40,482 nt of DNA, from positions 1-40,482 of the forward strand of contig QNUZ01000001.1 of NCBI GenBank assembly GCA_004347865.1, in the 5' to 3' direction. This document shows positions 1-19,924 of this stretch, piece after piece; position 1 is the stretch's first letter; each line of letters starts with the position of its first letter. The notes beneath the pieces were generated by a model. The model saw nothing but the letters and a program-made list of their open reading frames with translations, did not search any database and was not told the DNA's origin. A program made the position numbers and the translations under genes. The stretch comes from Archaeoglobi archaeon. Lineage in GTDB: Archaea > Halobacteriota > Archaeoglobi > Archaeoglobales > Archaeoglobaceae.

Positions 1-123
1 CATGCCTTAACGAGAGGCATGGGATGGGGGAGCTGTGAGCCCCCCGAACCGGCAGATGAGGGGAAGGGTGCAAAGCATCCCTTAACGCCGGAAGCTCCCG
101 ACTTCAGTCGTGGAGCAGCTCAC
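1..123 (+). repeat. Copy A of a dispersed ncRNA-like repeat family (long variant), 5'-truncated by the window edge
   Basis: Bases 1-123 (catgccttaacgagaggcatgggatggggg...ccggcagatgagg...gtcgtggagcagctcac) align with 6513-6612 on the + strand and with 18729-18800 on the - strand. Similarity ends abruptly after agctcac in all copies. Confidence 0.7.
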
Positions 124-170
124 TGCTTTGACGAAAGGTTTATTAAATAAGAGCTTTTTTTTAAAATTAT

Positions 171-566
171 ATGGCGATCGTTGTCGCTCTTGATGAGAAA
201 TCGAAAAGAAGCGAGAGGGTTGTGAATTTTTCTATAGAGGAATCAAAACTGAGGAATGAGAAACTTATATTCATACATTCTCTTTTCGGAGGAGAAAAAA
301 CTACGCAGGAGGAGATAGACAAAGGTGAAGCGCTGCTTCAATGGGCCGGGGAACTTGCAAGGAAGGCCGGTGTTGATTATGAGACAAAGCTGTTGGTCAG
401 GGGCAAGGAACCGGCTGAGGACATAATAGAATTTGCTGACGAGATCAGGGCAAGTCTCATTGTAATAGGGGTTAGGAAGAGGAGACCCGCAGGAAAACTT
501 CTTTTTGGAAGCGTGGCTCAGGAGGTAATACTGTACTCTAGCCAGCCTGTAATTTGTGTGAAATAG
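171..566 (+). CDS. Universal stress protein (UspA family)
   Basis: 131-aa ORF with a typical Usp fold signature (IVVALD...LIFIHS...IIEFADEIRASLIVIGVRKRRP..KLLFGSVAQEVILYSSQPVICV). An AT-rich TATA-like box lies just upstream. Confidence 0.8.
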   Translation: MAIVVALDEKSKRSERVVNFSIEESKLRNEKLIFIHSLFGGEKTTQEEIDKGEALLQWAGELARKAGVDYETKLLVRGKEPAEDIIEFADEIRASLIVIGVRKRRPAGKLLFGSVAQEVILYSSQPVICVK

Positions 567-588
567 TAGAATCAATCCTTTGAGCAGC

Positions 589-1578
589 TCACTCGCTCAA
601 CTTCACCAACCTGTTTCTTGCTTCATCCATGAAGGAATTGAGGTATCTCGCTACAGCCCTTTTTAGATCCAAGGGATGCAGAGACCCGTTCCTGAAGTCC
701 TCCAGAAGAGATTCAAAGCTCTCGTATTCAATGTCCCCACCAAATTTCTGGTCGCGCTCAATTTTGACTTTACCAAAAGCGGGGAAAACGTAGTGCTTTG
801 CTAGGTCTATTATCGGATTTCCTTCTACAACCTTTGGCGGGCAGAAGGCCTTCATAATCTTTCTTTCAACTTCTTCTGGTGAGTCACCTATTGATATATA
901 ATTTCCCTTAGATTTGCTCATTTTCTCCCCGTCGAGTCCTGAGATTATCGGCGTATGGATGCAGATCGGTGCCTTGTAACCGAGGGCCGGCAGATTCTCC
1001 CTTGCGAGCATGTGGATCTTTCTCTGATCTATTCCACCAACCGCCACATCGATCTTCAGGTATGCTATATCTAGCGATTGCATCAGAGGGTAGATCATCT
1101 GCGAAACCATCGGGTCCTCCTTTCTCCTGCTAACTTCATCCATACTCCTCCTTGCCCTGTTAAGAGTTGTGATCCTTGCTAGCTTCAGAACGTCGAGCAT
1201 GTATTCCCTATTTAACTGATAACTGCTTCCGAGAACAAATTGTGCGTTCTTCTCATTCAGTCCGAAGGCTATGAACGTTTTCATGTTCCTCTCTGCAAGC
1301 TTTCTTATCTCTTCGAAAGTCCCTTTCTCGTTTAGATAGGCGTGTATGTCGGCAAGGAGAACAATTACTTCGAATCCGATGCTTTGCAAATCTTTGAGCT
1401 TGTTCACGGTGATCAGATGCCCCAGGTGAATTTCACCGCTGGGTTCGTATCCAACGTAGGCTCTCGGTTTGTCCTTTTCTTCGAGTAATGCTCTGAGTTC
1501 TTCAGTCGTTACGACCTCCTCAGCATTTCTCGTCGCAATTGCAATCTTTTTTTCAAGATCCATGGCGGAAATCTGCAT
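589..1578 (-). CDS. tyrS: Tyrosyl-tRNA synthetase
   Basis: Class I aaRS motifs HLGH (GEIHLGHL) and KMSKS are present, and the length and layout fit archaeal TyrRS. The true start may be the internal ATG at 1563 (MDLEKK). Confidence 0.9.
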   Translation of the reverse strand: MQISAMDLEKKIAIATRNAEEVVTTEELRALLEEKDKPRAYVGYEPSGEIHLGHLITVNKLKDLQSIGFEVIVLLADIHAYLNEKGTFEEIRKLAERNMKTFIAFGLNEKNAQFVLGSSYQLNREYMLDVLKLARITTLNRARRSMDEVSRRKEDPMVSQMIYPLMQSLDIAYLKIDVAVGGIDQRKIHMLARENLPALGYKAPICIHTPIISGLDGEKMSKSKGNYISIGDSPEEVERKIMKAFCPPKVVEGNPIIDLAKHYVFPAFGKVKIERDQKFGGDIEYESFESLLEDFRNGSLHPLDLKRAVARYLNSFMDEARNRLVKLSE

Positions 1579-1710
1579 CGGATTTTTAAACTTCTCTGAA
1601 TTCCCGGTGTAATATTTTTTTATCCATAAAAATCTTTTTTCTTTGAATACGTATTATGAAGCAAAAACTTTATATTTTTGAACTGGATATGTATTTAATA
1701 AGAAGTTAAG

Positions 1711-2999
1711 GTGGTATATATGAATGAGGCATGTATCCTCCACAGAAAGTACGGAGGAAAAATCGAAATTCTACCTAAATGCCCGGTGAGGTCAATTAGC
1801 GATTTTAGCTACTGGTACACTCCGGGAGTTGCAGAACCAAGCATGGAAATTGCTAGAGATCCCGAAAAGGTTTACGAGTACACGAATAAGTGGAACACGG
1901 TTGCAATTATCACTGATGGCTCGAGGGTCTTGGGACTGGGCAACATCGGTGCGATGGCTTCCCTTCCGGTTATGGAAGGAAAAGCGATGATCTTCAAGCT
2001 CCTAGGTGGGGTTGATGCCTTTCCTCTTCCATTGAATGAACAAGATCCGGACAAATTTATAGAGATCGTAAAAAGGGTGACTGCCAGTTTTGGAGGCATA
2101 AACCTCGAGGACATCGCAGCGCCGAAGTGCTTCTACATCCTCGATAGACTGCAGAGAGAACTCGACATTCCAGTCTGGCACGATGACCAGCTGGGGACTG
2201 CTACTGCAACTCTCGCTGCTTTGATAAACGCTCTAAAGCTTGTTGGAAAGTCGATAAATGAGGTCGAAATTGCAGTGATTGGTGCCGGGGCTGCTAATAT
2301 TGCGACAGTTAAGTTGCTGGCGAAGGCTGGTGCAGACTTAAAGAGAATGTTTGTCGTAGACAGCAGGGGAATTCTGAACATGCATAGGAGGATCTTGAAA
2401 CACTAAGGCTCAAAAATCCAGAGAAATACTGGCTTTGCAGAGAAACAAATGCCGAACAGAGAAGCGGAGGGATAGCGGAAGCGATGAAAGGCGTAGATGT
2501 TGTGATTGCAGCAAGCACGGGTGGTGTTATCAAGAGGGAATATATTGCTCAGATGGCAGAGGATCCGATAGTCTTTGCCTTATCAAACCCGGTGCCTGAG
2601 ATCTATCCGCAGGAGGCAAAGGAAGCCGGAGCCAGGATCGTAGGAACTGGTAGGAGCGACTTTCCGAATCAGATAAACAACTCCTTGGTGTTTCCGGGAA
2701 TGTTTAGGGGCGTTTTAAGCGTTAGGGCCAGAAGAATCACAGAAGAGCTTTGCATAACGGCTGCTTACACTCTCGCGAGACTTGCTGACAGCAGGCTGAG
2801 CGAGGATTACATAATCCCAAGAATGACTGAGATCCACGTTTTTCCGGAGGTTGCAACGGCAGTTGGGATGAAGGCAGTAGATCTCGGGCTTGCGCGGCGC
2901 CTCTTCACACCGGATGAGCTGTACGAGCATTCAGCAAGGCTCATCTTCGGAACACATGAAAAGCTGAGGAAGCTAATGGAGCTAGGATATATTAGTTAA
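1711..2999 (+). pseudogene. NAD(P)-dependent malic enzyme (malate dehydrogenase, decarboxylating), reading frame broken near 2386-2391
   Basis: ORF 1711..2406 carries the N-terminal and NAD-binding part (VLGLGNIG..., IAVIGAGAAN). ORF 2484..2999 carries the C-terminal part (SNPVPEI, GRSDFPNQINN). The second frame is open back to 2388 and reads EDLETLRLKNPEKYWLCRETNAEQRSGGIAEAMKG, continuing the family pattern. The two parts are in frames 1 and 3. The likely real start is ATG 1720, preceded by aaggtgg. Confidence 0.8.
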
Positions 3000-3000
3000 A

Positions 3001-4083
3001 TTATAATATTCCCATTTCTGAGAGTTTTTCCGGTAGATAAACGTCCGTTACATAATCCAGGCCGTACTTGGCCAAAGCCTGCTGTTCAGATTTCTTGTTC
3101 AGCTCTAGTTGTAGTTTTACCTCCTTCTTCCAGAAATCTGTGTCGAATCTGGGATCTGTTAGTATGGCATTCAGAGCCTTTATGTCCTCATCGGTAAGCT
3201 TGTCCGATGGCAGATCGTATTTCACGATGTCTGAAGGAGTAACTCCGAGAAACTTCGCTTCTGGTGTCGCAAGATACTCCGAGAGATGCGCTGCCTTTAT
3301 ACTCCCGTAGGCAACGCTTGCATAAATCCTGTAGCTCCACGGATCTCCATCTGTGAAAACAACAACGGGTATTTTGAGCTCTGTATTGAGCCTTCTCAAA
3401 AGCCTCCTCGTGCTTCTCGCGGGCTGCCCCTTTAGATGGACCACTATTGCATTGAATTTCTCGTCAAAACCATTTTCGACCAGTCTGTCCCTCATACCGC
3501 CCGTTTCAATGGCTATTGCGAACTTTGCGTCATGCTCGACGAACTGCAGTTTGTCTACGTTTACTGGGATCTGGTAGCCACCTTCCCCGACATCATCTTG
3601 ACAGTGGATCTCCTTTACGCCCCTTCTTGTTTCTTCTCTGATTCTTATCGGTCCTACGATCGTGGCACCGTCTTCTTCGGGGCGAATGTGGAACTGTTCT
3701 CTCTGGTAACCCGATAGGATTTCGAGATCCTCTATCAGCCTGTCGCTTTCATCCTGCTCGTCGAATTTGGCATATCCCCAGCCTTCTGTAATGTAGTAAA
3801 GTTCTCTGAGCGTCGAGGATTTGTTCACGGCCAGCTGTTCCTTCAGAAAACCTATTACATATGCCATTTTGAGAATTTTGAGCGCTCCTTTAATTGTCTT
3901 TGCTGAAGTTACCGATTTTCTGTCTCCGTAGGTCCAAACACCCGAATCCTCCTTGAACTCTATGTTGTACTTAGTTCTTGTGGAGATCTCAAGTTCAGGA
4001 ACATTTCCAAATTTCATCTGCTCGTAAACGTTCTCAAGTATACCGAGCAAGGCAGAGAGACACCTCTTCTCAACTTCATTCAT
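3001..4083 (-). CDS. top6A: DNA topoisomerase VI subunit A (Spo11 homologue)
   Basis: 360 aa with the LRELYYI catalytic-Tyr region and a Toprim segment [15 protein letters not shown]. Confidence 0.9.
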
Positions 4084-4157
4084 AAAGAAAGTCCTTGCAG
4101 AAATTAAAAACGTTTTTCTAGAAGAATTTATATTCGACGCTTTTAGGATAGGGGTAG

Positions 4158-4928
4158 ATGATTCTGCTCACGAACGACGACGGGATATATTCGCAGGGTT
4201 TGAGTGCGGCTTACTCTGCACTGTGCGAGATCGATGAGGTCGTTGTTGTTGCCCCCATAACGCAGATGAGCGGAGTGGGGAGGAGCATATCCATAATGCG
4301 GCCGGTTCGTTTTTTCGAGCTCGAAATAGATGGCATGAGGGTTTATGCGATAGACGGAACACCTACGGATGCTGTGATCATTGGGATATACGAAATCATA
4401 AAGAAGTTGCCAGATCTGACCGTTTGCGGTATTAATCTGGGGGAAAATTTGTCAACAGAAGCCGTAACTACTTCTGGAACCGTCTGTGCGGCTCTTGAAT
4501 CTGCAACCCAAGGAAGTAAAGCAATAGCAATTTCTGTCGAGATGCACGAGCTTCTTAAGTTCGAACTCAGCTGCGAATATGACTTTGGGAATGCGAAGAG
4601 AGTGTTGAAGTGGATTGCAAGGAAAGTGCTCGACAAGGGGCTTCCCGAGGGCGTTGATGTGGTCAACGTAAATGTTCCGAGAAATTTCAACGGGAAAATT
4701 GCGATAACAAGGCTTGCAAAGAAAATGTATCAGACGAAGGTAGAAAAAAGGCTTGATCCGAGGGGAAGGGAGTACTACTGGATTCATGGGGTGGAAGTCG
4801 AAAGCGCTGAGCCTGGAACGGACATACACGCACTCAGAAACGGGTATGTCTCCATTACACCGATATCCTTAAATGCAACTTCGGACTGCGAAGCTTTAAG
4901 GTGCTGGGAAGATGAATGGAAAATATAA
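4158..4928 (+). CDS. surE: 5'/3'-nucleotidase SurE
   Basis: N-terminal [15 protein letters not shown] signature, 256 aa. Confidence 0.9.
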
Positions 4929-5580
4929 CGCTTCTAAACTGGCCCTTGGCTTGATAAAGGATGGAATGACTATTGGAATTGGCAGTGGGAGTACTGTTGA
5001 AGTTTTTCTTAACCTTCTGGGGGAGAGGATAAAGAGAGAAGGACTTAGAATTTACGGAATCCCGAGTTCCTATCAGTCAATGCTTGCTGGACTAAAGAAC
5101 GGTATTATTCTAACGGATCTTGTTGAGAGGGAACCAGACATCTGCATTGATGGTGCAGATCAGGTAGATTCAAGACTGAACTGCATTAAGGGTGGTGGAG
5201 CGGCCCTGACAAGGGAAAAAATCTTAGCAATCGCAAGCAAAAAAGTTTTGATACTCGTTGACAAATCTAAGCTGGTTGAAAAGCTTTCAATGCCAGTACC
5301 GGTAGAGGTTCTTCCCTTTGCTTACGGATACGTTGTTAAGAAACTTTCTTCGATCTGCAAACCAAAGTTAAGGGAGGGAAAGGGAAAGGTTGGACCTATA
5401 ATAACAGACAACGGAAACTTCATTCTGGACTGCGATTTTGGGGTAATTGAAAATCCTGAAGCTGTTGAGAAAGAATTGAGGTCGATTGCTGGAGTTGTGG
5501 AGAATGGCATTTTCCTCTCGGAACTAATCGATGCGGTGATTGTGGGTGGCGATTACTCGGCGGAAATCATTAAGAAGTAG
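4912..5580 (+). CDS. rpiA: Ribose-5-phosphate isomerase A
   Basis: Motifs GIGSGSTV, DGADQVD and KGGGAALTREKI; 222 aa. Overlaps the surE end by 17 nt. Confidence 0.9.
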   Translation: MNGKYNASKLALGLIKDGMTIGIGSGSTVEVFLNLLGERIKREGLRIYGIPSSYQSMLAGLKNGIILTDLVEREPDICIDGADQVDSRLNCIKGGGAALTREKILAIASKKVLILVDKSKLVEKLSMPVPVEVLPFAYGYVVKKLSSICKPKLREGKGKVGPIITDNGNFILDCDFGVIENPEAVEKELRSIAGVVENGIFLSELIDAVIVGGDYSAEIIKK

Positions 5581-5619
5581 CCTCTAGGCCAAAAATATAT
5601 ATAGTTTTATGGAGGGTGG

Positions 5620-6003
5620 TTGGACATGAATGAAAGGGCAAAGAAGGTCATTCTTATTGTGGATGACGATTTGGCTCTGCTTGAAGCTCTTGAACTGATG
5701 CTTCGAGGCAAGTATGAGGTTGTGAAGGTGACAAATGGGAAGGAAGCAGTTAAGACTTACAGAAACGTCAGGCCAGATCTTGTGCTTACAGACATCGTGA
5801 TGCCGGAAATGGATGGGATAGAAACAACTAAGGAGATTTTGAAGATCGACCCGAATGCGAAGATAGTCGGCATAACGGCATATTCCCAGAGCAGGGGAAA
5901 GGATTTAATAAACGCGGGTGCGAAGGAGATAATTGAAAAGCCCTTCACTCGAAGGAGGCTAATAGAGGTAATTGAGAAGTATCTACAAAAAGTTCCGGAA
6001 TAA
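5620..6003 (+). CDS. CheY-like receiver-only response regulator
   Basis: ILIVDDD...DLVLTDIVMPEMDG...KPF with no output domain. ATG 5626, preceded by ggagggtgg, is a more likely start than TTG 5620. Confidence 0.85.
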   Translation: MDMNERAKKVILIVDDDLALLEALELMLRGKYEVVKVTNGKEAVKTYRNVRPDLVLTDIVMPEMDGIETTKEILKIDPNAKIVGITAYSQSRGKDLINAGAKEIIEKPFTRRRLIEVIEKYLQKVPE

Positions 6004-6093
6004 GCAGTCGCTCAGCCGTAGCATCACTCTAGTTATCCTTTTGTGGAGTTTTGGGTTCTCTTTCCCGGGGATTTTTAATTTTTAAAAAAGAAG

Positions 6094-6164
6094 TGCGGCC
6101 GCCGGGATTTGAACCCGGGCAACGGGCTCGGGAAGCCCGTGTCCTGCCACTAGACTACGACCGC
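6094..6164 (-). tRNA. tRNA-Gly (anticodon CCC)
   Basis: The reverse complement folds as a cloverleaf by hand: acceptor GCGGTCG/CGGCCGC, anticodon stem CGGGC/GCCCG with loop TTCCCGA, T arm CCGGG-TTCAAAT-CCCGG, discriminator A. CCA is not encoded. A T-run follows on the - strand. Confidence 0.9.
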
Positions 6165-6369
6165 TCCCCCAATCCCGCAGATCTCTTTAACCTGCGGGCC
6201 ATGTTGATGCGGAGCCCCAACTTGAGCACCATGCCCGCATCTGTGGATTTTAATATGGCTCTACTTATTTAAGCTTTTCTCATCCCCGGCCTGGAGGTAG
6301 GGTTCTTAGTTTTAAACTTTGCCACTATCAAAGGACTTTTGATGGGCTCTTTCCGATTCCGGACATTCC

Positions 6370-6612
6370 TGAAAAGTTTTTTATAAAAATGGGTGCCCAG
6401 AAAACCCAGAGCTTTAGCTCTGGGATGAACGGGCAAAGTTAAAATAGTTCTGCGTTGAAGAGGTCTTGGTGATGTTCCCTTGCAGAGGAAAGTCCGGATA
6501 TGCGATATGAATATAGCCTTAACGAGAGGCATGGGATGGGGGAGCTTGGCTTTTGAACCGGCAGATGAGGTTGGCGGCGTAAAGCCCCGAATTTAGTTGT
6601 GGAGCAGCTCAC
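6370..6612 (+). ncRNA. Copy B (full length, long variant) of the dispersed repeat family; candidate promoter-bearing ncRNA, function unknown
   Basis: A BRE/TATA-like gaaaagttttttataaaaat (6371-6390) is followed by gggtgcccagaaaaccc. The first 107 nt (6391-6497) differ from copy C at only 8 positions, with no indel. It contains a perfect hairpin cccagagc-ttta-gctctggg and the 13-mer gaggaaagtccgg (6485-6497). There is no conserved ORF. Confidence 0.55.
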
Positions 6613-6627
6613 GCCGAGACGAGATCT

Positions 6628-6816
6628 ATGCCACTGGTTCCGCACCGCCACTGTATCGTTTGCGGGAAAGCAATTGAACCGGATAAGTATTACTGCAGTG
6701 AAGAATGCGAGCAGAAAATGGAGAGGGAAAGAAAAAGGCAGAGAAATTTCACGATCTTCATGTTCCTGCTGTTGCTGTTAATACTGCTGATCTTCTGGTT
6801 ACCTCTCTTCCGCTAG
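6628..6816 (+). CDS. Small Zn-ribbon membrane protein (DUF2116-like)
   Basis: 62 aa with CIVCG...YCSEEC (CxxC...CxxxC), then a basic stretch and a C-terminal hydrophobic helix. It starts 16 nt after the repeat-copy B boundary. Confidence 0.7.
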   Translation: MPLVPHRHCIVCGKAIEPDKYYCSEECEQKMERERKRQRNFTIFMFLLLLLILLIFWLPLFR

Positions 6817-8162
6817 CTCTCCGGGAACTGCTACTGGGTATCTGCCAGTGAGGCAAGCTACGCAGAAATCCTTTCCCCCCACCCTCTCTAGGGCTTTTAG
6901 TAGCCCCTGTAGGCTCAGATAGCTGAGGCTATCCGACCCGATAATCTCTCTTATCTCTTCAATGGTATGGTTGGATGCAACAAGCTCCTTTCTAGTCTTC
7001 ATGTCGATTCCGAAATAGCAGGGAGCAATTATCGGTGGGCTTCCGACCCTTAAATGGATTTCCTTCGCTCCCGCCTTTCTTATCATGTCGACTATTCTTT
7101 TGGATGTTGTTGCCCGCACAATGCTGTCGTCAACCAGCACTATTCTCTTGTCTCTCACGTTCTCCTTGATTACATTCACCTTTAATTTAACCAAAAGCTC
7201 CCTCAGCTCTTGTTTCGGCATTATGAAAGTTCTGCCAATGTATCTGTTCTTTATCAGGCACTCCATGTAAGGCAGCCCTGACCTCGATGAAAAACCGATT
7301 GCGGCAGTTATTCCGCTGTCTGGAACCGCTGATACAAAGTCGGCGTCAGCCGGCGATTCTTCGGCTAGGACCCTCCCCATTTCTGTTCTTGCCCTGTAGA
7401 CATTGATTCCATCGATGATCGAGTCAGGGCGGGCAAAGTAAATGTACTCAAATATGCAGACGGCTTTCCTTCTGCTTTTTGCAAACCGGATGAATTCCAG
7501 ATTCCCATTGTCCATTATTACTGCCTCTCCTGGCTCGACATCTTTTATGAACCTCCCCTCAAGGGCATCAATTGCGCAGCTTTCGCTACAAACTATGTAG
7601 CCGTCCTCGAGTTCACCCACGCAAAGCGGTCTGAATCCCAGCGGATCCCTGTAGGCCAAGATCCTGTCGTTGATCAGTAAAACACAGGAATGGCTACCGA
7701 CAAGTTTGGAGTTCAGTTCTTGGAGATAATCTCTGTAATCGCCCTCCTTCAGCAGAATCTTTGAAAGTAGCTGCGCTATTATCTCCGAATCGGAGTCCGA
7801 GGTGAAAACGCTCCCCTCATTTTCTAGCTCCCTTCTCAGCTCGGCATGATTAACTAGGTTTCCGTTATGAGCAACCGCAATGGTTCCTATCTTTGATTTC
7901 ACAACAAATGGTTGAGCGTTCTCAAGCCTCGATAAGCCCGTTGTGGAGTATCTGACGTGCCCTATTGCATATTTGGCCGGTATCAAGTCCTCCTTCGTAA
8001 AGACTTCGGAAACAAGACCCATCTGCTTTTTGTACCTAATTGTGTCACTGTAAAAGGCTATGCCGGCGGACTCCTGACCACGATGCTGGAGTGAAAAAAG
8101 CGCATAGTATACCTTTTCTACTGCCGAAAATCTTTCGCTATAAACTCCTGCAATCCCACACA

Positions 8163-8163
<1 letters not shown>
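6799..8163 (-). CDS. purF: Amidophosphoribosyltransferase
   Basis: N-terminal MCGIAGV (Ntn Cys), a PRTase motif VLVDDSIVRATT and C-terminal Cys ligands; 454 aa. Confidence 0.92.
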
Positions 8164-8620
<457 letters not shown>

Positions 8621-8697
8621 TTAAAAGTATCGCTTATTCCTCCAGCCTTTAAACCTTTGCTCAGACATGTTTTAAAACTCGGAGGAAAAATTGTTTT

Positions 8698-9729
8698 GTG
8701 CAGATCGTTGAGGAAAATCTGAGAGATCATGAAGGTGAGATAAAGCTGATTCCCGAAAATTTGGAGGATTTGTGGCATCTCAGGTTCATAATCGAGAAGG
8801 GAGACGTTGTTTTTTCATTGACAAAGAGAGCTAGTCACAGCGATGACAAGCTCAGGGGGGATAAGGAGCTGATCACAGTTCGAATTGGGGTCGAGGTCGA
8901 GAAAGTGGAATTCCACAGATTTGCAAATAGGCTTAGAATAACCGGTAGGATCGTTGGCGGTGTTGAAGAGGCAGGATTTCACACTTTGAACATAGTTGTT
9001 GGAAGAGAGCTCAGTATCCGGAAGAGATGGAAGGATGAGCAGTTGAAGAGATTGAGAAAGGCCGTGGAGAGCTCGAAGAGACCAGAAGTAGTAATACTGA
9101 CAATAGAAGAAGGGGAAGCGATTGCAGGAGCATTGAGAGAATGGGGGATCGAGGAAATTTTTGAAAAAAGGCAAAGTTACGGCAAAGATTACGGTGGAAC
9201 AAGGAATGAGTTTTTTGAGGAACTTTTTGAAGCCTTAAAAAACACTAGTTTCCGTTATCTCGTAATTGCGGGCCCCGGTTTCACAAAGAAAGACTTTTAC
9301 GAGTTCTTGAGACAGAAGAATCTCGATTTGACCAGAAGGACAGTAATTGTGGATACCTCGTCGATTGGAAGGAGAGGATTCATAGAGGTTTTAAAAAGGA
9401 GAGCAATTGATAGGATCATCGGTGAAATAAGACTTGCAGAGGAAGCTGAAGTGGTTGAGAGGCTGCTTGAAGGCATTGCAAAGAATGAAAGGGTAGCTTA
9501 CGGATTGGAGGAGGTTAGGAGGGCAAAAGAGTATGGAGCAATTGAGGTTCTGTTGGTTTCAGATGACTTCCTGCTCACCGAGCGTGAGAAGTGGGATATC
9601 GATAGCTTCATGGAAGATGTTCAGAAGACAGGCGGAAGGGTTTTAATACTCAGCTCGGAATTCGAGCCTGGTGAAATCGTTTCAAGGCTCGGTGGTATTT
9701 GTGCGATCCTCAGATTCGAAGTCCGATAA
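8698..9729 (+). CDS. pelA: Pelota (Dom34 homologue, mRNA surveillance / ribosome rescue)
   Basis: 343 aa with N-terminus IKLIPENLEDLWHLRFIIEKGDVV and an eRF1-like C-terminal domain. GTG start with an upstream ggagg. Confidence 0.88.
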   Translation: MQIVEENLRDHEGEIKLIPENLEDLWHLRFIIEKGDVVFSLTKRASHSDDKLRGDKELITVRIGVEVEKVEFHRFANRLRITGRIVGGVEEAGFHTLNIVVGRELSIRKRWKDEQLKRLRKAVESSKRPEVVILTIEEGEAIAGALREWGIEEIFEKRQSYGKDYGGTRNEFFEELFEALKNTSFRYLVIAGPGFTKKDFYEFLRQKNLDLTRRTVIVDTSSIGRRGFIEVLKRRAIDRIIGEIRLAEEAEVVERLLEGIAKNERVAYGLEEVRRAKEYGAIEVLLVSDDFLLTEREKWDIDSFMEDVQKTGGRVLILSSEFEPGEIVSRLGGICAILRFEVR

Positions 9730-10930
9730 GTGGAAGATATTTGCTGTTTTGGCATGCATTTACTTCCTCGTTTATTTTCACAGAACTTCTCCGGCAGTAA
9801 TGGCTGATGAGTTCATGAAGGAATTTGCCGTTTCGGCGCTGGGGGTGGGGATTCTCTCTTCGGCCTATTTTTACCCTTATGCGATCTTACAAATTCCGGT
9901 TGGCGCCCTTTCAGACACAAAAGGAGCAAAGTGGACCGTTATCACCTTTACTTCGATAGCTTTTTTTGGTGTCCTAACTCTGATCTTGGCAAACACTTAC
10001 GAAATGGCTGTCGCTTCGAGATTCCTGATAGGAGTGGGAGTTGCCGGGGTTTACGTGCCTACGATAAAAATAATATCCGTCTGGTTCAGGCAGAATGAGT
10101 TTGCAACTGCTACTGGGATTCTTTTCGCGATTGGAAATCTAGGAGCGATTGTTTCAGCCTATCCGCTGGCCAAAGCAATAGAACTTTTTGGCTGGAGGTT
10201 TCCATTTCTCCTTGTTGCTTTAATTACTGCTATTTTGATATTTCTAGCTTGGAAAATCGTGAGGGATGCACCAAGTGACTTTACCAGAGAGAAGATCAGA
10301 AGAAGCGACATAGGTTTGATTGTCGGCAATTTGTCTCTCTGGCTCATTGCTGTATCCTCAATGCTCAGATATGGCGTTGTGATGGGCTTTCAGGGACTTT
10401 GGGGCGGTCCATTTTTGATTGACGTGTACAAAATGTCTAAATCCACTGCGGGCTTCATTTTAATGCTGGTGGGGGTCGGGACAATCGTAGGAGCCCTTAT
10501 CTTCGGTAGAATTTCTGATCTGATCGGTCTGAAAAAGCTGATGCTCGTGCTAGGAGGTGTCGGATTCACCTTGGCATGGTTGCCTTTGGTGATTGCTACC
10601 GAAACTCTGGATATTGCATCTATTTGTCTGATATCTTTTATGGTCGGTTTCTTTTCAAGCACCGGCCCTGTTGCTTACGCAATTGTAAAAGAACTCTTTC
10701 CACTCAAGGTAACGGGTTTGTCCATGAGCATAGTAAATGTATTCCCATTTTTTGGAGCGGCTCTGTTTCAGGCGGTAATGGGCTATCTAATGGACTCTGT
10801 CGGAAAGATTGATTCGGTTTATCCCATGGAGGCCTATAGACTCTCTTTCGAGTTCTGCCTTTTTGCGTCCGTTTTGTCGGTTTTAGCGGTTCTTTTGGTA
10901 AAGGAGAAGAAGTTCGAAGAAACGCGATGA
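9671..10930 (+). CDS. MFS-type transporter
   Basis: About 12 hydrophobic segments with an MFS-like N-terminus (YFLVYFHRTSPAVMADEF). The listed start overlaps pelota by 59 nt; GTG 9701 is a plausible alternative. Confidence 0.7.
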   Translation: MKSFQGSVVFVRSSDSKSDKWKIFAVLACIYFLVYFHRTSPAVMADEFMKEFAVSALGVGILSSAYFYPYAILQIPVGALSDTKGAKWTVITFTSIAFFGVLTLILANTYEMAVASRFLIGVGVAGVYVPTIKIISVWFRQNEFATATGILFAIGNLGAIVSAYPLAKAIELFGWRFPFLLVALITAILIFLAWKIVRDAPSDFTREKIRRSDIGLIVGNLSLWLIAVSSMLRYGVVMGFQGLWGGPFLIDVYKMSKSTAGFILMLVGVGTIVGALIFGRISDLIGLKKLMLVLGGVGFTLAWLPLVIATETLDIASICLISFMVGFFSSTGPVAYAIVKELFPLKVTGLSMSIVNVFPFFGAALFQAVMGYLMDSVGKIDSVYPMEAYRLSFEFCLFASVLSVLAVLLVKEKKFEETR

Positions 10931-10982
10931 ATTCAAAATTTGCAGAAAGAAATATATATCATTTTAGTCAAAAATAAACAGA

Positions 10983-12485
10983 ATGGTTGAGAGGTATCGC
11001 CTACTTAGAGAGTTCGTAAAGTCGGAGATATTGGAGGAAGTTAAATTTGAAAACGTTGTGGACGAGTACTGGGTTGCGGAACCATTCATAAAGATCATAA
11101 TTTTTGAGGATCTCGAAAACCAGAAATTGAGGTATCATGCAGTTGAGCCGTCTTTGAATGTGGAGGAATTAAAGCTGCTGGCATCACTCATCGTTGATCT
11201 CAGACGCGTTCTTACGCTAATTGATGTTTCGCTGGACCTAGAAGTAAGGGCCAAGGCCTTGGTTAAAAATTTCGGGAAGATTATTAAAGAATACGGAATT
11301 TCAATTGATAGCGACCTTTATTCTAGAATGCTTTACTATCTGTTCCGCGAATTTTTTGGATTCAGCGTAATCGAACCGCTGATGGTGGATCCGAATGTTG
11401 AGGATATTTCTTGCGATGGTTATGATGTCCCCATATTCGTTTATCATAAAAATTACGGCTATCTTGAGACAAACATTAAGATCCCAAAGCTGGCATTAGA
11501 CAGGCTTGTTATGCTTCTGAGTCAGAAAAGCGGCAAGCACATTTCGTTAGCTAATCCGATTATCGATTCTACGCTTCCTGATGGTAGCAGGCTTCAGGCT
11601 ACCCTAGGAACAGAAATTACACCTAGAGGCTCGAGCTTCACGGTGAGAAAATTTACAACCCAGCCACTGACCCCGTTAGATCTAGTGAGGTCTGGTACTG
11701 TGCCTTTAGGGGTCATGGCCTACATCTGGCTTTCGATAGAACACAAGCTATCTGTGATAATCGTCGGAGAAACTGCAAGCGGAAAAACGACGACTCTAAA
11801 CGCCATCCTCATGTTCGTACCTCCGGATGCCAAAATTATATCGATAGAGGATACCAGAGAGATAAAGCTCCATCATGAGAACTGGCTGGCTCAGGTGACG
11901 AGAACGGGGATAGGAGAGCAGGAAATTGACATGTATGACCTTCTCAAAGCCGCCTTGAGACAGAGACCGGACTACATTGTGGTTGGTGAGGTTAGGGGCA
12001 GGGAAGCTCAGACTTTGTTCCAGGCAATGTCAACGGGTCATGCTTGCTATTCAACCTTCCACGCCGGGGACATAAATCAGATGGTTTATCGTTTCGAGAG
12101 CGAACCTCTGAACGTTCCAAGGAGCATGCTCCAGTTTCTTGATATAGTCTTGGTTCAGAGCACTTATCTGGCGGGGGGTAGGAGGATGAGGAGGACAAAA
12201 GAGGTGAATGAGATATTGGGTATTGATCCAACTGATAAAAATTTGCTTGTGAATCAGTTTGTTAAATGGGATGCGAAGAAAAATTCGCATGTTGAGGTAG
12301 GGATTCCGAAAAAGCTAGAGAAAATCGCGATGTCGAGAGTGGACGATGCTTACGCGGAGCTGGAAAGAAGAAGGAGGTATTTGGAGTGGATGATTGGAAA
12401 GGGAGTTACAGATTACAAAGAATTTACAAAACTAATTCACAGCTATTATAGGAATCCTGAAACGACCTTTTCAATGGTATTATGA
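10983..12485 (+). CDS. FlaI/PilB-type secretion ATPase (archaeal type IV pilus / archaellum assembly ATPase family)
   Basis: Walker A VGETASGKTTTLNA, Walker B/Asp box DYIVVGEVRG, His box STFHA, and a FlaI-like N-terminal domain (YWVAEPF...YHAVEP). Confidence 0.85.
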   Translation: MVERYRLLREFVKSEILEEVKFENVVDEYWVAEPFIKIIIFEDLENQKLRYHAVEPSLNVEELKLLASLIVDLRRVLTLIDVSLDLEVRAKALVKNFGKIIKEYGISIDSDLYSRMLYYLFREFFGFSVIEPLMVDPNVEDISCDGYDVPIFVYHKNYGYLETNIKIPKLALDRLVMLLSQKSGKHISLANPIIDSTLPDGSRLQATLGTEITPRGSSFTVRKFTTQPLTPLDLVRSGTVPLGVMAYIWLSIEHKLSVIIVGETASGKTTTLNAILMFVPPDAKIISIEDTREIKLHHENWLAQVTRTGIGEQEIDMYDLLKAALRQRPDYIVVGEVRGREAQTLFQAMSTGHACYSTFHAGDINQMVYRFESEPLNVPRSMLQFLDIVLVQSTYLAGGRRMRRTKEVNEILGIDPTDKNLLVNQFVKWDAKKNSHVEVGIPKKLEKIAMSRVDDAYAELERRRRYLEWMIGKGVTDYKEFTKLIHSYYRNPETTFSMVL

Positions 12486-18649: not shown

Positions 18650-18704
18650 GACCTCAGTCTCTCCTTATCATCACAGCTCAGATCGCCCATCATTCATCAT
18701 CGGC
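18650..18704 (-). ncRNA. C/D-box sRNA (2'-O-methylation guide)
   Basis: The - strand reads ccg-ATGATGA-atgatgggcgat-CTGA-gct-GTGATGA-taaggagaga-CTGA-ggt. This gives C, D', C' and D boxes in canonical order, with 12- and 10-nt guide spacers and a 3-nt linker, about 55 nt in total. Confidence 0.6.
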
Positions 18705-18728
18705 ATTACACTTTTTGTGCGAAGGCAA

Positions 18729-18917
18729 GTTAGCTACTCCACGACTAAATTCGGGAACTTCCGGCGCTAAGGGATGCTTTACGCCCTTCCCCTCCTCTGC
18801 CGGACTTCCCTCTGCACGGGAACATCCCCAAGACCTCTTCAACGCAGAACTATTTAAACCTTGCCCATTCATCCCAGAGCCAAAGCTCAGGGTTTTCTGG
18901 GCACCCATTTTTATAAA
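18729..18917 (-). ncRNA. Copy C (short variant) of the dispersed repeat family, with conserved TATA-like box
   Basis: The - strand reads ggaaaaatttataaaaat-gggtgcccagaaaaccctgagc...gagggaagtccggcagaggagg...gtcgtggagtagctaac. It matches copy B at the 5' half and copy A at the 3' half, and lacks the 64-nt block present in A and B. It starts immediately after the mtnA stop codon. Confidence 0.55.
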
Positions 18918-18928
18918 TTTTTCCAAAA

Positions 18929-19924
18929 TTAAAAATTATACGGTGGATATATTATTCCGTCTTCAGTGATTATTGCACTAACAAGGCTAAGAGGTGTGAA
19001 GTCGAACGCAGGGTTGTATACCTTAACATCTTTTGGCGCAAGAAGCCTGTTTCCACAGTATATCAGCTCTTCGCGACCCCTTTCCTCAATCACAACATCC
19101 TTTTCAGTTTTTGTAAGATCTAAAGTGCTTTTCGGGGCTGCAACGTAAAAGGGGACTCTGTGGTAACTTGCAGCGATTGCAAGTGTGAAAGTGCCTATTT
19201 TGTTGAAAACCCCGTCTTGCACGATTCGGTCCGCTCCCACAAATACCTTTTTAACCAACCTCTTTCGCATCAAAATCCCAACTGCGGCATCCGTTATCAG
19301 CGTTACATCGATTCCATCTTTCATAAGCTCGTAGCAGGTGAGCCTAGAGCCTTGGTTCAGCGGCCTCGTTTCGCAGGCGAAAACCTTTACCCTCTTTCCC
19401 TCTTCGACAGCTGACCTCACAATGCCCAGTGCAGTTCCCCAGTCTACCGTTGCCAGTCTCCCTGTGTTGCAGTATGTCAATATAGCATCGCCATCATCGA
19501 TAAGCTTTGCTCCAATCTTTCCAATCCTCTTATTCCTCTCTACGTCCTCTTCAGCAACCTTTTCTGCTTCTCTTAGGGCAATCTCTCTTACTTCATCGAT
19601 GCTATTTCCAGAAAGGGCTTTTTTTAGCACCCTTTCTACACCTACTGAAAGATTAACTGCAGTTGGTCTGGAAGAAGCAATCAACCTTGCTGAATTGATT
19701 AGATGTTCCTTCATTTCTTCTATACTTGAAAACTCTTTTTCGAATGATGCAAGAGCAACACCATAAGCCCCAGCTGCTTCAAGAGCAGGCGCACCACGAA
19801 TTGCGAGTTTTTTTATAGCCTCAATTAGCTCTTTAACCGTTCTACAAGCAATTATTTCTTCCTTCTCGGGCAGCTTTGTCTGGTCAATCAGCCAAATGCA
19901 TTCTTTCCAGAATATCGTTCGCAT
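18929..19924 (-). CDS. mtnA: Methylthioribose-1-phosphate isomerase family protein (aIF-2BI / MtnA type)
   Basis: N-terminal WLIDQTKLPEKEE...AIKKLAIRGAPALEAAGAYG and the eIF-2B alpha/beta/delta-like fold; 331 aa. Confidence 0.8.
   Translation of the reverse strand: MRTIFWKECIWLIDQTKLPEKEEIIACRTVKELIEAIKKLAIRGAPALEAAGAYGVALASFEKEFSSIEEMKEHLINSARLIASSRPTAVNLSVGVERVLKKALSGNSIDEVREIALREAEKVAEEDVERNKRIGKIGAKLIDDGDAILTYCNTGRLATVDWGTALGIVRSAVEEGKRVKVFACETRPLNQGSRLTCYELMKDGIDVTLITDAAVGILMRKRLVKKVFVGADRIVQDGVFNKIGTFTLAIAASYHRVPFYVAAPKSTLDLTKTEKDVVIEERGREELIYCGNRLLAPKDVKVYNPAFDFTPLSLVSAIITEDGIIYPPYNF

What the first reader, a model, noticed from the sequence alone, without database searches (positions are those of the whole stretch)
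6370..6612. Full-length member of an unexplained promoter-bearing, non-coding repeat family
Copy B begins with a BRE/TATA-like box (gaaaagttttttataaaaat) that is conserved with copy C. The next 107 nt differ from copy C at only 8 positions and contain a perfect 8-bp hairpin (cccagagc/gctctggg). No reading frame is conserved: the ATG-initiated frame that stays open in copy C hits TAA after 16 codons in B, and the antisense ORFs listed in the track fall in different frames in B and C. Similarity ends sharply at ...gtggagcagctcac, 16 nt before the DUF2116 gene. I do not recognise this as any known RNA family or IS terminus.
Basis: seen in the sequence. Interest (0 to 1): 0.7.

Follow-up and report, generated by a model that had tools for sequence, protein, structure and literature searches.

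The report
Gene-less remnant of TnpB transposon
The repeat is a short, gene-less derivative of a TnpB-carrying IS200/IS605-type jumping gene: its two ends are fused, and it keeps part of the transposon's guide-RNA scaffold, so it is an ordinary mobile-element relic and not a new RNA gene family.

Summary
Window 6385-6612 (copy B), 18912-18729 on the minus strand (copy C) and 1-123 (copy A) are related, non-coding and sharply bounded. The family is explained.

A metagenome contig 99% identical to the window carries, just left of the window start, a 1331-bp element. It consists of the same 5' module, an intact 420-codon tnpB gene (RNA-guided nuclease) and the same 3' module, and it ends exactly where copy A ends. 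[quoted passage not shown] This is a PATE (palindrome-associated transposable element) of the IS200/IS605 family.

A sister contig holds a 250-nt copy at window 12449|12450, where the window is empty. It lies 3' of TTAT and has no target duplication. All 19 LE occurrences found (several are the same site in related strains) follow TTAT, or TTAC in one orthologous pair. The "TATA box" is therefore TTAT from the target plus the AAAAAT that starts the LE.

The 8-bp hairpin is the LE subterminal palindrome. The 3' module is the TnpB guide-RNA (omegaRNA) scaffold, with strong covariation support. B and C carry deletions in that scaffold and are probably decaying.

Expression and TnpA could not be tested. 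Verdict: new member of a known kind, low interest.

The parts
6381..6384 (+). TTAT target / transposon-adjacent motif (TAM) flanking the left end of copy B. It is not part of the element.
   Evidence: 17 of 19 LE occurrences found are preceded by TTAT and 2 (one orthologous pair) by TTAC. The additional full-length elements L018, L022, L023 and L026 are also preceded by TTAT. The empty site in the window keeps TTAT.
6385..6612 (+). Copy B: a 228-nt PATE, with the LE and RE of a tnpB element fused after internal deletion.
   Evidence: Boundaries come from the empty/filled site comparison. LE is 88% and RE is 89% identical over the parts retained to the full-length element in L010. Length table.
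6394..6435 (+). LE subterminal palindrome: outer stem 6394-6398/6431-6435, internal loop, inner 8-bp hairpin 6405-6412/6417-6424. This is the presumed TnpA recognition hairpin on single-stranded DNA.
   Evidence: The inner hairpin is 96.6% paired across 11 LEs, with 5 of 8 pairs showing compensatory changes; slid controls pair at 28-54%.
6439..6446 (+). Internal TATA-like box TTAAAATA, a second promoter candidate and the better conserved one.
   Evidence: TT(T/A)AAATA-like sequence is present at the equivalent place in all LEs, including the divergent L017 and L019. Promoter activity is inferred only.
6468..6482 (+). Shine-Dalgarno-like GGTGAT (6468-6473) and remnant of the tnpB start codon (TTG 6480-6482).
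   Evidence: Aligns with the called tnpB starts in L026 (TTG), L018 (GVG position, GTG) and L023 (ATG).
6506..6512 (+). Deletion junction where LE-derived sequence meets RE-derived sequence.
   Evidence: Homology to the full element's 5' part ends near 6505, and homology to its 3' part resumes at ATAGCC, 6513.
6513..6612 (+). RE-derived part: a truncated TnpB omegaRNA scaffold. Stems 1 and 2 are present. The 3' strand of the long-range helix and part of the terminal hairpin are deleted.
   Evidence: Covariance model R1 scores 57.5 bits (E 1.4e-12), against 127 bits for copy A. The alignment shows the 22-nt deletion relative to L013.
6613..6628 (+). Flank that would serve as the 16-nt guide if an omegaRNA is made from copy B. 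It runs into the DUF2116 start codon.
   Evidence: Position only, by analogy with TnpB omegaRNAs (PMC8612924, PMC10055086). Not tested.
1..123 (+). Copy A: right end / omegaRNA scaffold of an element that continues left of the window.
   Evidence: R1 scores 127.3 bits. In L010 the same site is the RE of a 1331-bp tnpB element.
18729..18912 (-). Copy C: a 184-nt PATE. LE is fused to RE at a shared CCGG, and omegaRNA stems 1-2 are deleted. TTAT lies at 18916-18913.
   Evidence: (72.5 bits).
6139..6246 (-). Degenerate, internally deleted remnant of a tnpB 3' end (HRCGH... plus omegaRNA stem 1). The similarity runs up to the 5' end of tRNA-Gly (6164); the model alignment extends weakly into the tRNA.
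   Evidence: blastn gives 87.5% over 48 nt. R1 scores 25.4 bits, E 7e-5.
12446..12450 (+). Empty target site: TTAT followed by the insertion point 12449|12450. It is occupied by a 250-nt PATE in the sister contig (L013).
   Evidence: with flank identities.

Best explanation
Copy B (6385-6612) is a non-autonomous, gene-less derivative (PATE, a MITE-like element) of a ~1.33-kb tnpB-only insertion sequence of the IS200/IS605 family (IS1341 type).

Shown:
- The parent element is left end, tnpB, then right end. The family's 5' module is the parent's left end: subterminal hairpin, TATA-like boxes, SD-like motif and tnpB start codon.
- The 3' module is the last ~125 nt of the parent. It overlaps the tnpB C-terminal codons, ends at the transposon boundary, and folds into a covariation-supported multi-helix RNA.
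- The derivatives arose by internal deletions at 4-7-nt microhomologies.
- The element inserts 3' of TTAT without target duplication, and one copy is polymorphic between near-identical strains.

Inferred from established IS200/IS605 biology:
- Copies move as single-stranded DNA by 'peel and paste', using a Y1 (HUH) TnpA supplied in trans that recognises the LE and RE hairpins.
- The 3' module is the omegaRNA scaffold. Transcription reads out of the right end, so the adjacent 16-20 nt become the guide. TnpB encoded by full-length copies then cuts TTAT-flanked empty sites and restores the element by recombination.
- The TATA-like sequence at the left boundary is a composite of the target TTAT and the first bases of the LE. 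Together with an internal TTAAAATA box, it is the likely source of tnpB/omegaRNA transcription.

B lacks one strand of the long-range helix and part of the terminal hairpin. C lacks stems 1-2. Both are probably decaying copies, not fully functional guide-RNA genes.
For: - Full-length parent element. L010 is 99% identical to window 46-12299 and carries, immediately left of the window, TTAT|LE (88% identical to B), then tnpB, then an RE that ends at window position 123. The tnpB frame is 420 codons from the TTG start; the searches used a 411-aa version starting nine codons downstream.
- TnpB identity. The protein passes the NCBIfam guided_TnpB cut-off (149.5 bits against 100). It hits Pfam Cas12f1-like_TNB and matches solved Cas12f/TnpB structures, including ISDra2 TnpB. 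The D/E/D RuvC motifs and the zinc ribbon are present.
- Mobility. L013 shows ...CAGCTATTAT|AAAAATTGG...GTAGCTCAC|AGGAG..., whereas the window shows ...CAGCTATTAT|AGGAA... There is no duplication.
- TTAT precedes every LE found, including full-length elements from MAGs of other archaeal lineages.
- A size series of 1327-1333, 568, 250, 248, 228, 199, 184, 179, 171 and 80 bp shares the same ends.
- RE/omegaRNA alignment of 13 sequences: 96.3% of cells are paired against 32-54% for slid controls, and 13 pairs have compensatory changes against 0-5.
- LE hairpin covariation.
- Model R1 finds A, C, B and one remnant in the window and nothing else significant.
- Literature. PATEs are defined as fused IS605-type termini (PMC3119063). 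A PATE-derived ncRNA is expressed in Halobacterium, and the RE-like UUCA tetraloop is shared with HgcC (PMC4615843). PATEs often encode omegaRNAs that TnpB uses in trans (PMC10055086).
Against: - No Y1 tnpA was found in the window or in about 140 kb of related loci. The search was only a tblastn with two TnpA-like queries written from memory, so the mobilising enzyme is unidentified.
Promoter use, omegaRNA production and guide length are therefore unverified.
- The LE and RE hairpins of this element are not alike in sequence, unlike classical IS608.
- B and C carry deletions in the scaffold, and C has a mismatch in the LE hairpin, so these particular copies may be inert.
- The pseudoknot proposed between GUGAGC and the terminal GCUCAC is invariant where present, so it has no covariation support, and it is absent from the B/L010 variant.
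Confidence: 0.9

Rival explanations
1. The PATE copies have been co-opted. Their outward-reading promoter(s) drive or modulate neighbouring host genes and sRNAs: DUF2116 after B, the C/D-box sRNA sR1 after C, and an acyl-CoA-synthetase-like gene in L007. On this view they act as mobile promoter/leader cassettes. This is compatible with a PATE origin.
For: Each copy lies upstream of, and co-oriented with, a gene or sRNA at very short distance. B's RE is 15 nt from the DUF2116 ATG. C's RE is 24 nt from sR1, which leaves no room for an sRNA promoter of its own. In L007/L014 the RE abuts the ATG. Two TATA-like boxes lie inside or at the edge of the LE.
Against: The downstream genes are unrelated to each other. 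The copies carry different deletions, which argues against selection on a common function. Insertion next to genes is expected in a compact genome with AT-rich intergenic TTAT targets. There are no expression data.
Confidence: 0.15
2. One reading: an independent family of promoter-driven structured non-coding RNA genes, a new RNA class unrelated to transposons.
For: No Rfam family reaches threshold. Conserved hairpins and TATA-like sequence are present.
Against: Both halves are homologous to the two ends of a tnpB element and are bounded exactly as that element is. There is a polymorphic insertion next to TTAT without duplication. The middle of the 'RNA' is variably deleted. The conserved 5' part contains the tnpB ribosome-binding site and start codon.
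Confidence: 0.02
3. A cis-regulatory leader or riboswitch shared by the downstream genes.
For: Position upstream of genes, and structured RNA potential.
Against: The downstream genes (Usp, DUF2116, sR1, acyl-CoA synthetase, T2SSF, tnpB) share no pathway. MFE z-scores for whole B and C are unremarkable, at -0.47 and -1.59. There is no Rfam riboswitch hit.
Confidence: 0.01

Closest known systems
PATEs (palindrome-associated transposable elements) of IS200/IS605-type transposons, first described in Haloquadratum walsbyi (PMC3119063) and also noted in Geobacillus and Clostridioides (PMC10055086; 10.1101/2023.11.20.567912)
   Same: Too short to encode a transposase. Made of fused left and right ends of a tnpB element through repeat- or microhomology-mediated core deletion. 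No terminal inverted repeats and no target duplication. Subterminal palindromes. Inserts next to a 4-5-nt targeting sequence. Strain-specific insertions occur.
   Different: The host lineage is Archaeoglobales-like thermophiles, and related elements occur in several other archaeal phyla. The retained LE is long (~120 nt) and carries the tnpB 5' UTR, TATA-like boxes and start codon. No paper in the searched library describes this element family.
TnpB omegaRNA / reRNA, formerly sotRNA, of IS1341-type tnpB genes (PMC8612924, PMC10055086, PMC4615843)
   Same: The 3' module overlaps the 3' end of tnpB and terminates at the RE boundary. It has a multi-helix conserved fold and a T-rich 5' TAM (TTAT). 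It carries a terminal hairpin with a UUCA/UUUA loop, the 'RE-like tetraloop'.
   Different: RNA existence, processing and TnpB binding are not shown here. In B and C the scaffold is partly deleted. The Rfam sotRNA families did not match at E<=10.
VNG_R0052, the PATE-derived intergenic ncRNA of Halobacterium salinarum (PMC4615843)
   Same: An LE fragment fused to an RE hairpin, intergenic, and of similar size class. In Halobacterium it is expressed.
   Different: No sequence similarity was demonstrated, and expression of the present copies is unknown.
HgcC family RNA (Rfam RF00062; Methanocaldococcus, Thermococcales)
   Same: A weak match spanning the full model falls exactly on the RE of the parent element. 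It shares a first stem followed by GAUG, a terminal hairpin with a UUYA loop and a purine-rich 3' tail. The literature links HgcC to the RE-like tetraloop (PMC4615843).
   Different: The score is 14.2 bits against a gathering score of 50, and copy B gives no hit at all. The relationship is at best distant homology, not membership.
Classical MITEs (terminal inverted repeats plus target-site duplication)
   Same: Short, non-autonomous, multi-copy, and derived from an IS by internal deletion.
   Different: The element has no terminal inverted repeats and no duplication. Transposition chemistry is presumed to be Y1/HUH single-strand, not DDE.

Membership tests
PATE (non-autonomous IS200/IS605 derivative) | Both ends are homologous to the LE and RE of a tnpB/tnpA element, with the core deleted. 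| tested here: met
   LE of B is 88% and RE is 89-92% identical to the 1331-bp tnpB element in L010. A derivative series runs from 568 to 80 bp.
PATE (non-autonomous IS200/IS605 derivative) | Too short to encode a transposase or nuclease. | tested here: met
   The element is 228 nt, with only a 39-codon fused remnant frame. The + strand ORFs of 60 aa or more that reach 6385-6612 only overlap its last few bases, and those on the minus strand (6269-6532, 6439-6651) are not shared with copy C.
PATE (non-autonomous IS200/IS605 derivative) | Subterminal palindromes at both ends and no terminal inverted repeats. | tested here: met
   LE hairpin covariation. RE hairpin, helix 7, covariation. The termini AAAAATGG... 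and ...GCTCAC are not inverted repeats.
PATE (non-autonomous IS200/IS605 derivative) | Insertion 3' of a fixed tetranucleotide without target-site duplication. | tested here: met
   Empty versus filled site at 12449|12450. TTAT or TTAC precedes every LE found.
PATE (non-autonomous IS200/IS605 derivative) | Mobilised in trans by a Y1 HUH TnpA. | not testable with these tools
   No TnpA-like ORF was found in the window or fetched loci by tblastn with queries written from memory. The whole genome is not available, because the genome-contig scan did not return the source genome.
TnpB omegaRNA | Encoded at the 3' end of tnpB, overlapping the ORF and ending at the RE boundary. | tested here: met
   In L010, L018, L023 and L026 the scaffold overlaps the last ~40 codons of tnpB and ends at the RE.
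TnpB omegaRNA | Conserved secondary structure supported by covariation. | tested here: met
   96.3% of cells are paired, 13 compensatory pairs, and 0 of 500 shuffles reach the observed values. Slid controls pair at 32-54%.
TnpB omegaRNA | Complete scaffold retained in copy B. | tested here: not met
   A 22-nt deletion removes the 3' strand of helix 4 and part of the terminal hairpin. R1 scores 57.5 bits against 127 bits for A.
TnpB omegaRNA | Transcript carries a flank-derived guide, binds TnpB and directs TAM-dependent DNA cleavage. | not testable with these tools
Rfam HgcC (RF00062) | Covariance-model score at or above the gathering threshold of 50 bits. | tested here: not met
   14.2 bits, E 0.27, on the RE of the L010 element. 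No hit on window 6200-6700 or on L016-L026 at E<=1.
Rfam sotRNA families RF02656/RF02657 (halobacterial omegaRNAs) | Covariance-model match. | tested here: not met
   Not listed among matches at E<=10.
Classical MITE | Terminal inverted repeats and target-site duplication. | tested here: not met
   Neither is present at the filled site.
Archaeal promoter-driven sRNA gene | BRE/TATA belonging to the unit, with a TSS ~25 nt downstream. | tested here: inconclusive
   The TTAT half of the box is flanking target DNA, and the sequence upstream differs between copies. A second internal TATA-like box is conserved. No TSS data are available.

The most novel reading that the evidence does not exclude
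The gene-less copies may not be mere relics. They could act as trans-encoded guide-RNA genes and/or mobile promoter cassettes. On this reading each PATE, driven by the composite TTAT|AAAAAT box or the internal TTAAAATA box, yields an omegaRNA whose guide is the adjacent host sequence. One TnpB could then police many loci, and read-out transcription would supply expression to adjacent host genes, including the C/D-box sRNA sR1 24 nt downstream of copy C.
Probability: 0.2. Interest if true: 0.45.

Novelty: new member of a known kind. Interest (0 to 1): 0.22.

Why it matters
It settles an apparent orphan RNA family as transposon debris, which prevents mis-annotation as a novel ncRNA or promoter element.

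It also defines a thermophilic archaeal tnpB element with exact ends, a TTAT TAM, and a covariation-supported omegaRNA fold, and it provides evidence of recent mobility. Near-identical relatives occur in several archaeal phyla. That could be useful for annotating Archaeoglobales genomes and as a lead for heat-stable TnpB systems.

Conceptually it adds nothing new to IS200/IS605 biology.

Tried and rejected
- RNase P-like reading. GAGGAAAGUCCGG at 6485-6497 resembles the RNase P CR-I motif. I rejected this because there was no RNase P or other Rfam hit at gathering threshold or at E<=10, and the stretch is the tnpB start region.
- H/ACA-like hairpin. The only support was a SNORA79 match on the opposite strand at 19 bits, E=1, which is chance level.
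- Riboswitch or leader. Rejected because the downstream genes are unrelated and the fold z-scores are weak.
- RNA-seq check.
- Genome-contig scan with a 19-mer. It returned one real hit (an Archaeoglobales MAG) and two chance hits, and did not return the source genome. Genome-wide copy number therefore could not be obtained.
- TnpA search by tblastn, with approximate TnpA sequences written from memory. Nothing was found below E=0.5.
- Rfam E-value scans of eight related loci. There was no HgcC or sotRNA hit at E<=1.
- A pseudoknot between GUGAGC and the 3' GCUCAC. It pairs in 9 of 13 sequences but never varies, so it remains unproven.

Full report
**Observation**

The window holds three related stretches:
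- Copy A: 1-123, + strand.
- Copy B: 6385-6612, + strand.
- Copy C: 18912-18729, minus strand.

B and C share a 118-nt 5' arm at 93% identity. A and C share a 76-nt 3' arm at 88%. A 19-mer from the 5' arm occurs twice in the window against 0.03 expected by chance. The 8-bp hairpin, the sharp end at ...GTGGAGCAGCTCAC (6612) and the DUF2116 gene starting at 6628 are all as described.

The family is modular:
- A 5' module of about 120 nt, from AAAAATGGGTGCCC to GTCCGG.
- A middle module, GCCTTAACGAGAGGCATGGGATGGGGGAGC...GAACCGGCAGATGAGG, present in A and B and absent in C.
- A 3' module ending in GCTCAC, partly deleted in B.

Rfam gives no hit at gathering threshold. The window's only gathering-level hits are two tRNAs and the C/D-box sRNA sR1. 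At E<=10 on the region itself, only chance-level matches appear.

**Related sequences**

One scan of the genome collection and one of the metagenome collection, both with the 19-mer, returned an Archaeoglobales MAG and 12 real metagenome loci. In L008, L012, L016 and L002 the 5' module runs straight into an ORF that looks like TnpB.

L010 comes from a contig that is 99% identical to window 46-12299. Immediately left of the window start it shows a complete element of 1331 bp:
- TTAT, then the left end (88% identical to B).
- A tnpB frame of 420 codons from its TTG start. The protein-family searches used a 411-aa version that starts nine codons downstream.
- A right end that stops at the position equivalent to window 123.

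The protein passes the NCBIfam guided_TnpB cut-off (149.5 bits against 100). It hits Pfam Cas12f1-like_TNB and matches solved Cas12f and TnpB structures, with the RuvC D/E/D motifs and the zinc ribbon intact. The tnpB reading frame continues through the right end into the flank, as is usual for these elements. Copy A is therefore a transposon right end, and B and C are left end plus right end with the gene deleted.

**Mobility and boundaries**

L013 comes from the same metagenome contig as L010. It carries a 250-nt copy at a place where the window has none:
- Window: ...CAGCTATTAT|AGGAATCC...
- L013...CAGCTATTAT|AAAAATTGGTGCCC...GTAGCTCAC|AGGAGTCC...

There is no target duplication and there are no inverted termini. 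All 19 left-end occurrences in the first set are preceded by TTAT; one orthologous pair has TTAC. Several of these 19 are the same site in closely related strains. The full-length elements fetched later from MAGs labelled Methanomethylicia, Thermoproteota and Ca. Methanoglobus, and from JGI/ENA metagenomes, also follow TTAT.

The purine-rich stretch before it is unrelated flank.

Elements sharing the same two ends measure 1327-1333, 568, 250, 248, 228 (B), 199, 184 (C), 179, 171 and 80 bp. Three deletion junctions sit at short microhomologies (my reading):
- CCGG in C.
- CCTTAAC in L011.
- AACG in the 80-bp copy.

This matches the repeat-mediated core deletions described for PATEs in Haloquadratum (PMC3119063).

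**Left end**

Across 11 left ends the inner stem is 96.6% paired, with compensatory changes at 5 of 8 pairs. Slid controls pair at 28-54%. In IS200/IS605 elements such subterminal hairpins on single-stranded DNA are the TnpA recognition sites (established knowledge; summarised in PMC10055086 and PMC4615843).

The four bases 5' of the hairpin foot are AAAA. In the copy pair flanked by TTAC they are AAAG, which recalls the IS608 rule that these bases pair with the target. However, two copies with AAAG still have TTAT, so this is only suggestive, and it rests on my memory of the IS608 work.

Downstream lie three further features:
- A second TATA-like box (TTAAAATA, 6439-6446), conserved even in divergent left ends.
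- An SD-like GGTGAT at 6468-6473.
- The relic of the tnpB start codon, TTG at 6480.

Which box, if either, is the promoter cannot be decided without transcript data.

**Right end**

I aligned the last ~125 nt of 13 elements, seven of them from full-length tnpB copies in L010 and L017-L026. RNAalifold predicts a stem 1, a stem 2, a long-range helix (CCGGC/GCCGG, switching to CCAGC/GCTGG in half the sequences), an internal hairpin, and a terminal hairpin with a UUCA/UUUA/GUAA loop.

Counting on that structure gives 96.3% paired cells against 32-54% for slid partners. Thirteen pairs show changes on both sides against 0-5 in the controls, and no shuffle out of 500 reaches the observed values. Stem 1 exists in three fully compensated versions: CAUGCC/GGCAUG, CGCAGG/(U)CUGCG and CAUAGG/(U)CUAUG. 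The terminal hairpin is rewritten completely in some elements, for example CCUCGCC/GGCGGGG. Many pairs are kept through G-U, which favours selection at the RNA level.

Position (overlapping the tnpB 3' end and ending at the transposon boundary), fold and the 5' T-rich TAM are what defines a TnpB omegaRNA (PMC8612924, PMC10055086). The 'RE-like UUCA tetraloop' has been described for archaeal sotRNAs, for HgcC and for an expressed PATE-derived RNA (PMC4615843).

Rfam's HgcC model gives a match spanning the full model exactly on the right end of the L010 element, but it scores far below threshold: 14.2 bits against 50. I treat this as a hint of distant kinship, not membership.

A covariance model built from the alignment (R1) scores as follows in the window:
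- A: 127 bits.
- C: 72.5 bits.
- B: 57.5 bits.
- One further remnant, 6139-6202 on the minus strand: 25.4 bits, E 7e-5.
- Nothing else is significant.

It finds 18 matches in the 13 first-round loci.

**State of the window copies**

- B has lost 22 nt relative to its closest relative, L013. The loss removes the 3' strand of the long-range helix and weakens the terminal hairpin.
- C lacks stems 1-2 and has a T-T mismatch in the left-end hairpin.

Both are therefore likely to be decaying copies. The L013-type copy and the full-length element look intact.

**What could not be tested**

- No Y1 tnpA was found in the window or the fetched loci. The search was limited to tblastn with approximate queries written from memory.
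- The source genome was not retrievable.
- Read data are not available for this window.

Mobilisation by TnpA, promoter use, omegaRNA production and guide function are therefore inferences from family biology.

**Comparison and verdict**

The closest known kind is the PATE of IS200/IS605 elements (PMC3119063). These are known to carry omegaRNAs that TnpB uses in trans (PMC10055086) and to be expressed in Halobacterium (PMC4615843). All the structural criteria for a PATE that I could test are met. The full omegaRNA scaffold criterion is met by A but not by B. Classical MITE criteria are not met.

None of my literature searches, which combined 'Archaeoglobus' with TnpB, MITE, IS605, IS1341 or transposase, returned a paper describing this element family. 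It is a new member of a known kind, and interest is low.

The residual novel possibility is that such copies serve as trans guide-RNA genes or as mobile promoters for neighbours such as sR1 and DUF2116. This is not excluded, and it is not supported by any direct evidence.

Noticed in passing
window 6139-6246 (-), next to tRNA-Gly(CCC) 6093-6164 (-): An internally deleted remnant of a tnpB 3' end (HRCGH... plus an intact omegaRNA stem 1, CCCGCAGG...CUGCGGG). The similarity stops exactly at the 5' end of the tRNA gene, so the tRNA leader is made of transposon debris. The same arrangement occurs in L010 and L005.
   Followed up: partly
window 18652-18931 (-): PATE C is inserted after a 12-nt spacer and the TTAT that follow the stop codon of an IF-2B-family gene (18929-19924), and it ends 24 nt before the C/D-box sRNA sR1 (18704-18652). 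The gap leaves no room for an sRNA promoter of its own, so sR1 is probably made from a transcript that crosses or starts in the PATE.
   Followed up: no
window 12446-12470; L013 1061-1310: The polymorphic insertion site lies in the last 12 codons of a T2SSE/PilB-like ATPase gene (10983-12485), just before a T2SSF gene. In the filled allele the C-terminus RNPETTFSMVL is replaced by 20 PATE-encoded residues. The first 17 nt to the right of the junction differ by 4 substitutions and 1 indel, against about 1.5% divergence elsewhere. This could reflect relaxed constraint after insertion, or escape from guide-directed cleavage.
   Followed up: partly
window 1-45 versus L010 12254-12300 and L005 283-328: At the same chromosomal site the window carries different stem-1 and stem-2 variants of the omegaRNA (CAUGCC and GUGAGCCCCCC types) from its 99%-identical relatives (CGCAGG and UUGGCUUUU types). 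From position 46 onward the sequences agree. The right end is mosaic, which suggests recombination or replacement among element copies.
   Followed up: partly
L017-L026: TnpB proteins 70-90% identical to the L010 protein are found in MAGs labelled Ca. Methanoglobus, Ca. Methanodesulfokora, Methanomethylicia, Bathyarchaeales, Thermoproteota and Methanospirareceae. They share the TTAT target and right-end architecture, and most share the same left end. This implies recent horizontal spread among distant archaea.
   Followed up: partly
L007 3806-4056 and L014 752-1003: A 247/248-nt PATE whose right end has mutated to ...GGGGTAGTTTAT lies 1 nt before the ATG of a 571-aa ORF. From its N-terminal sequence, and without a family search, the ORF looks like an AMP-dependent (acyl-CoA) synthetase. 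Its transcription must cross or start in the PATE.
   Followed up: no
L011 about 4340-4390; L008 590-1060 (-): Traces of other IS200/IS605 lineages lie beside the PATEs. One is an L020/L017-type hairpin, CCTCGCCCTTCAGGGCGGGGCAGCTCAG, downstream of the L011 copy. The other is an unrelated truncated TnpB-like N-terminal ORF upstream of the L008 copy. This is consistent with elements targeting one another's neighbourhood.
   Followed up: no
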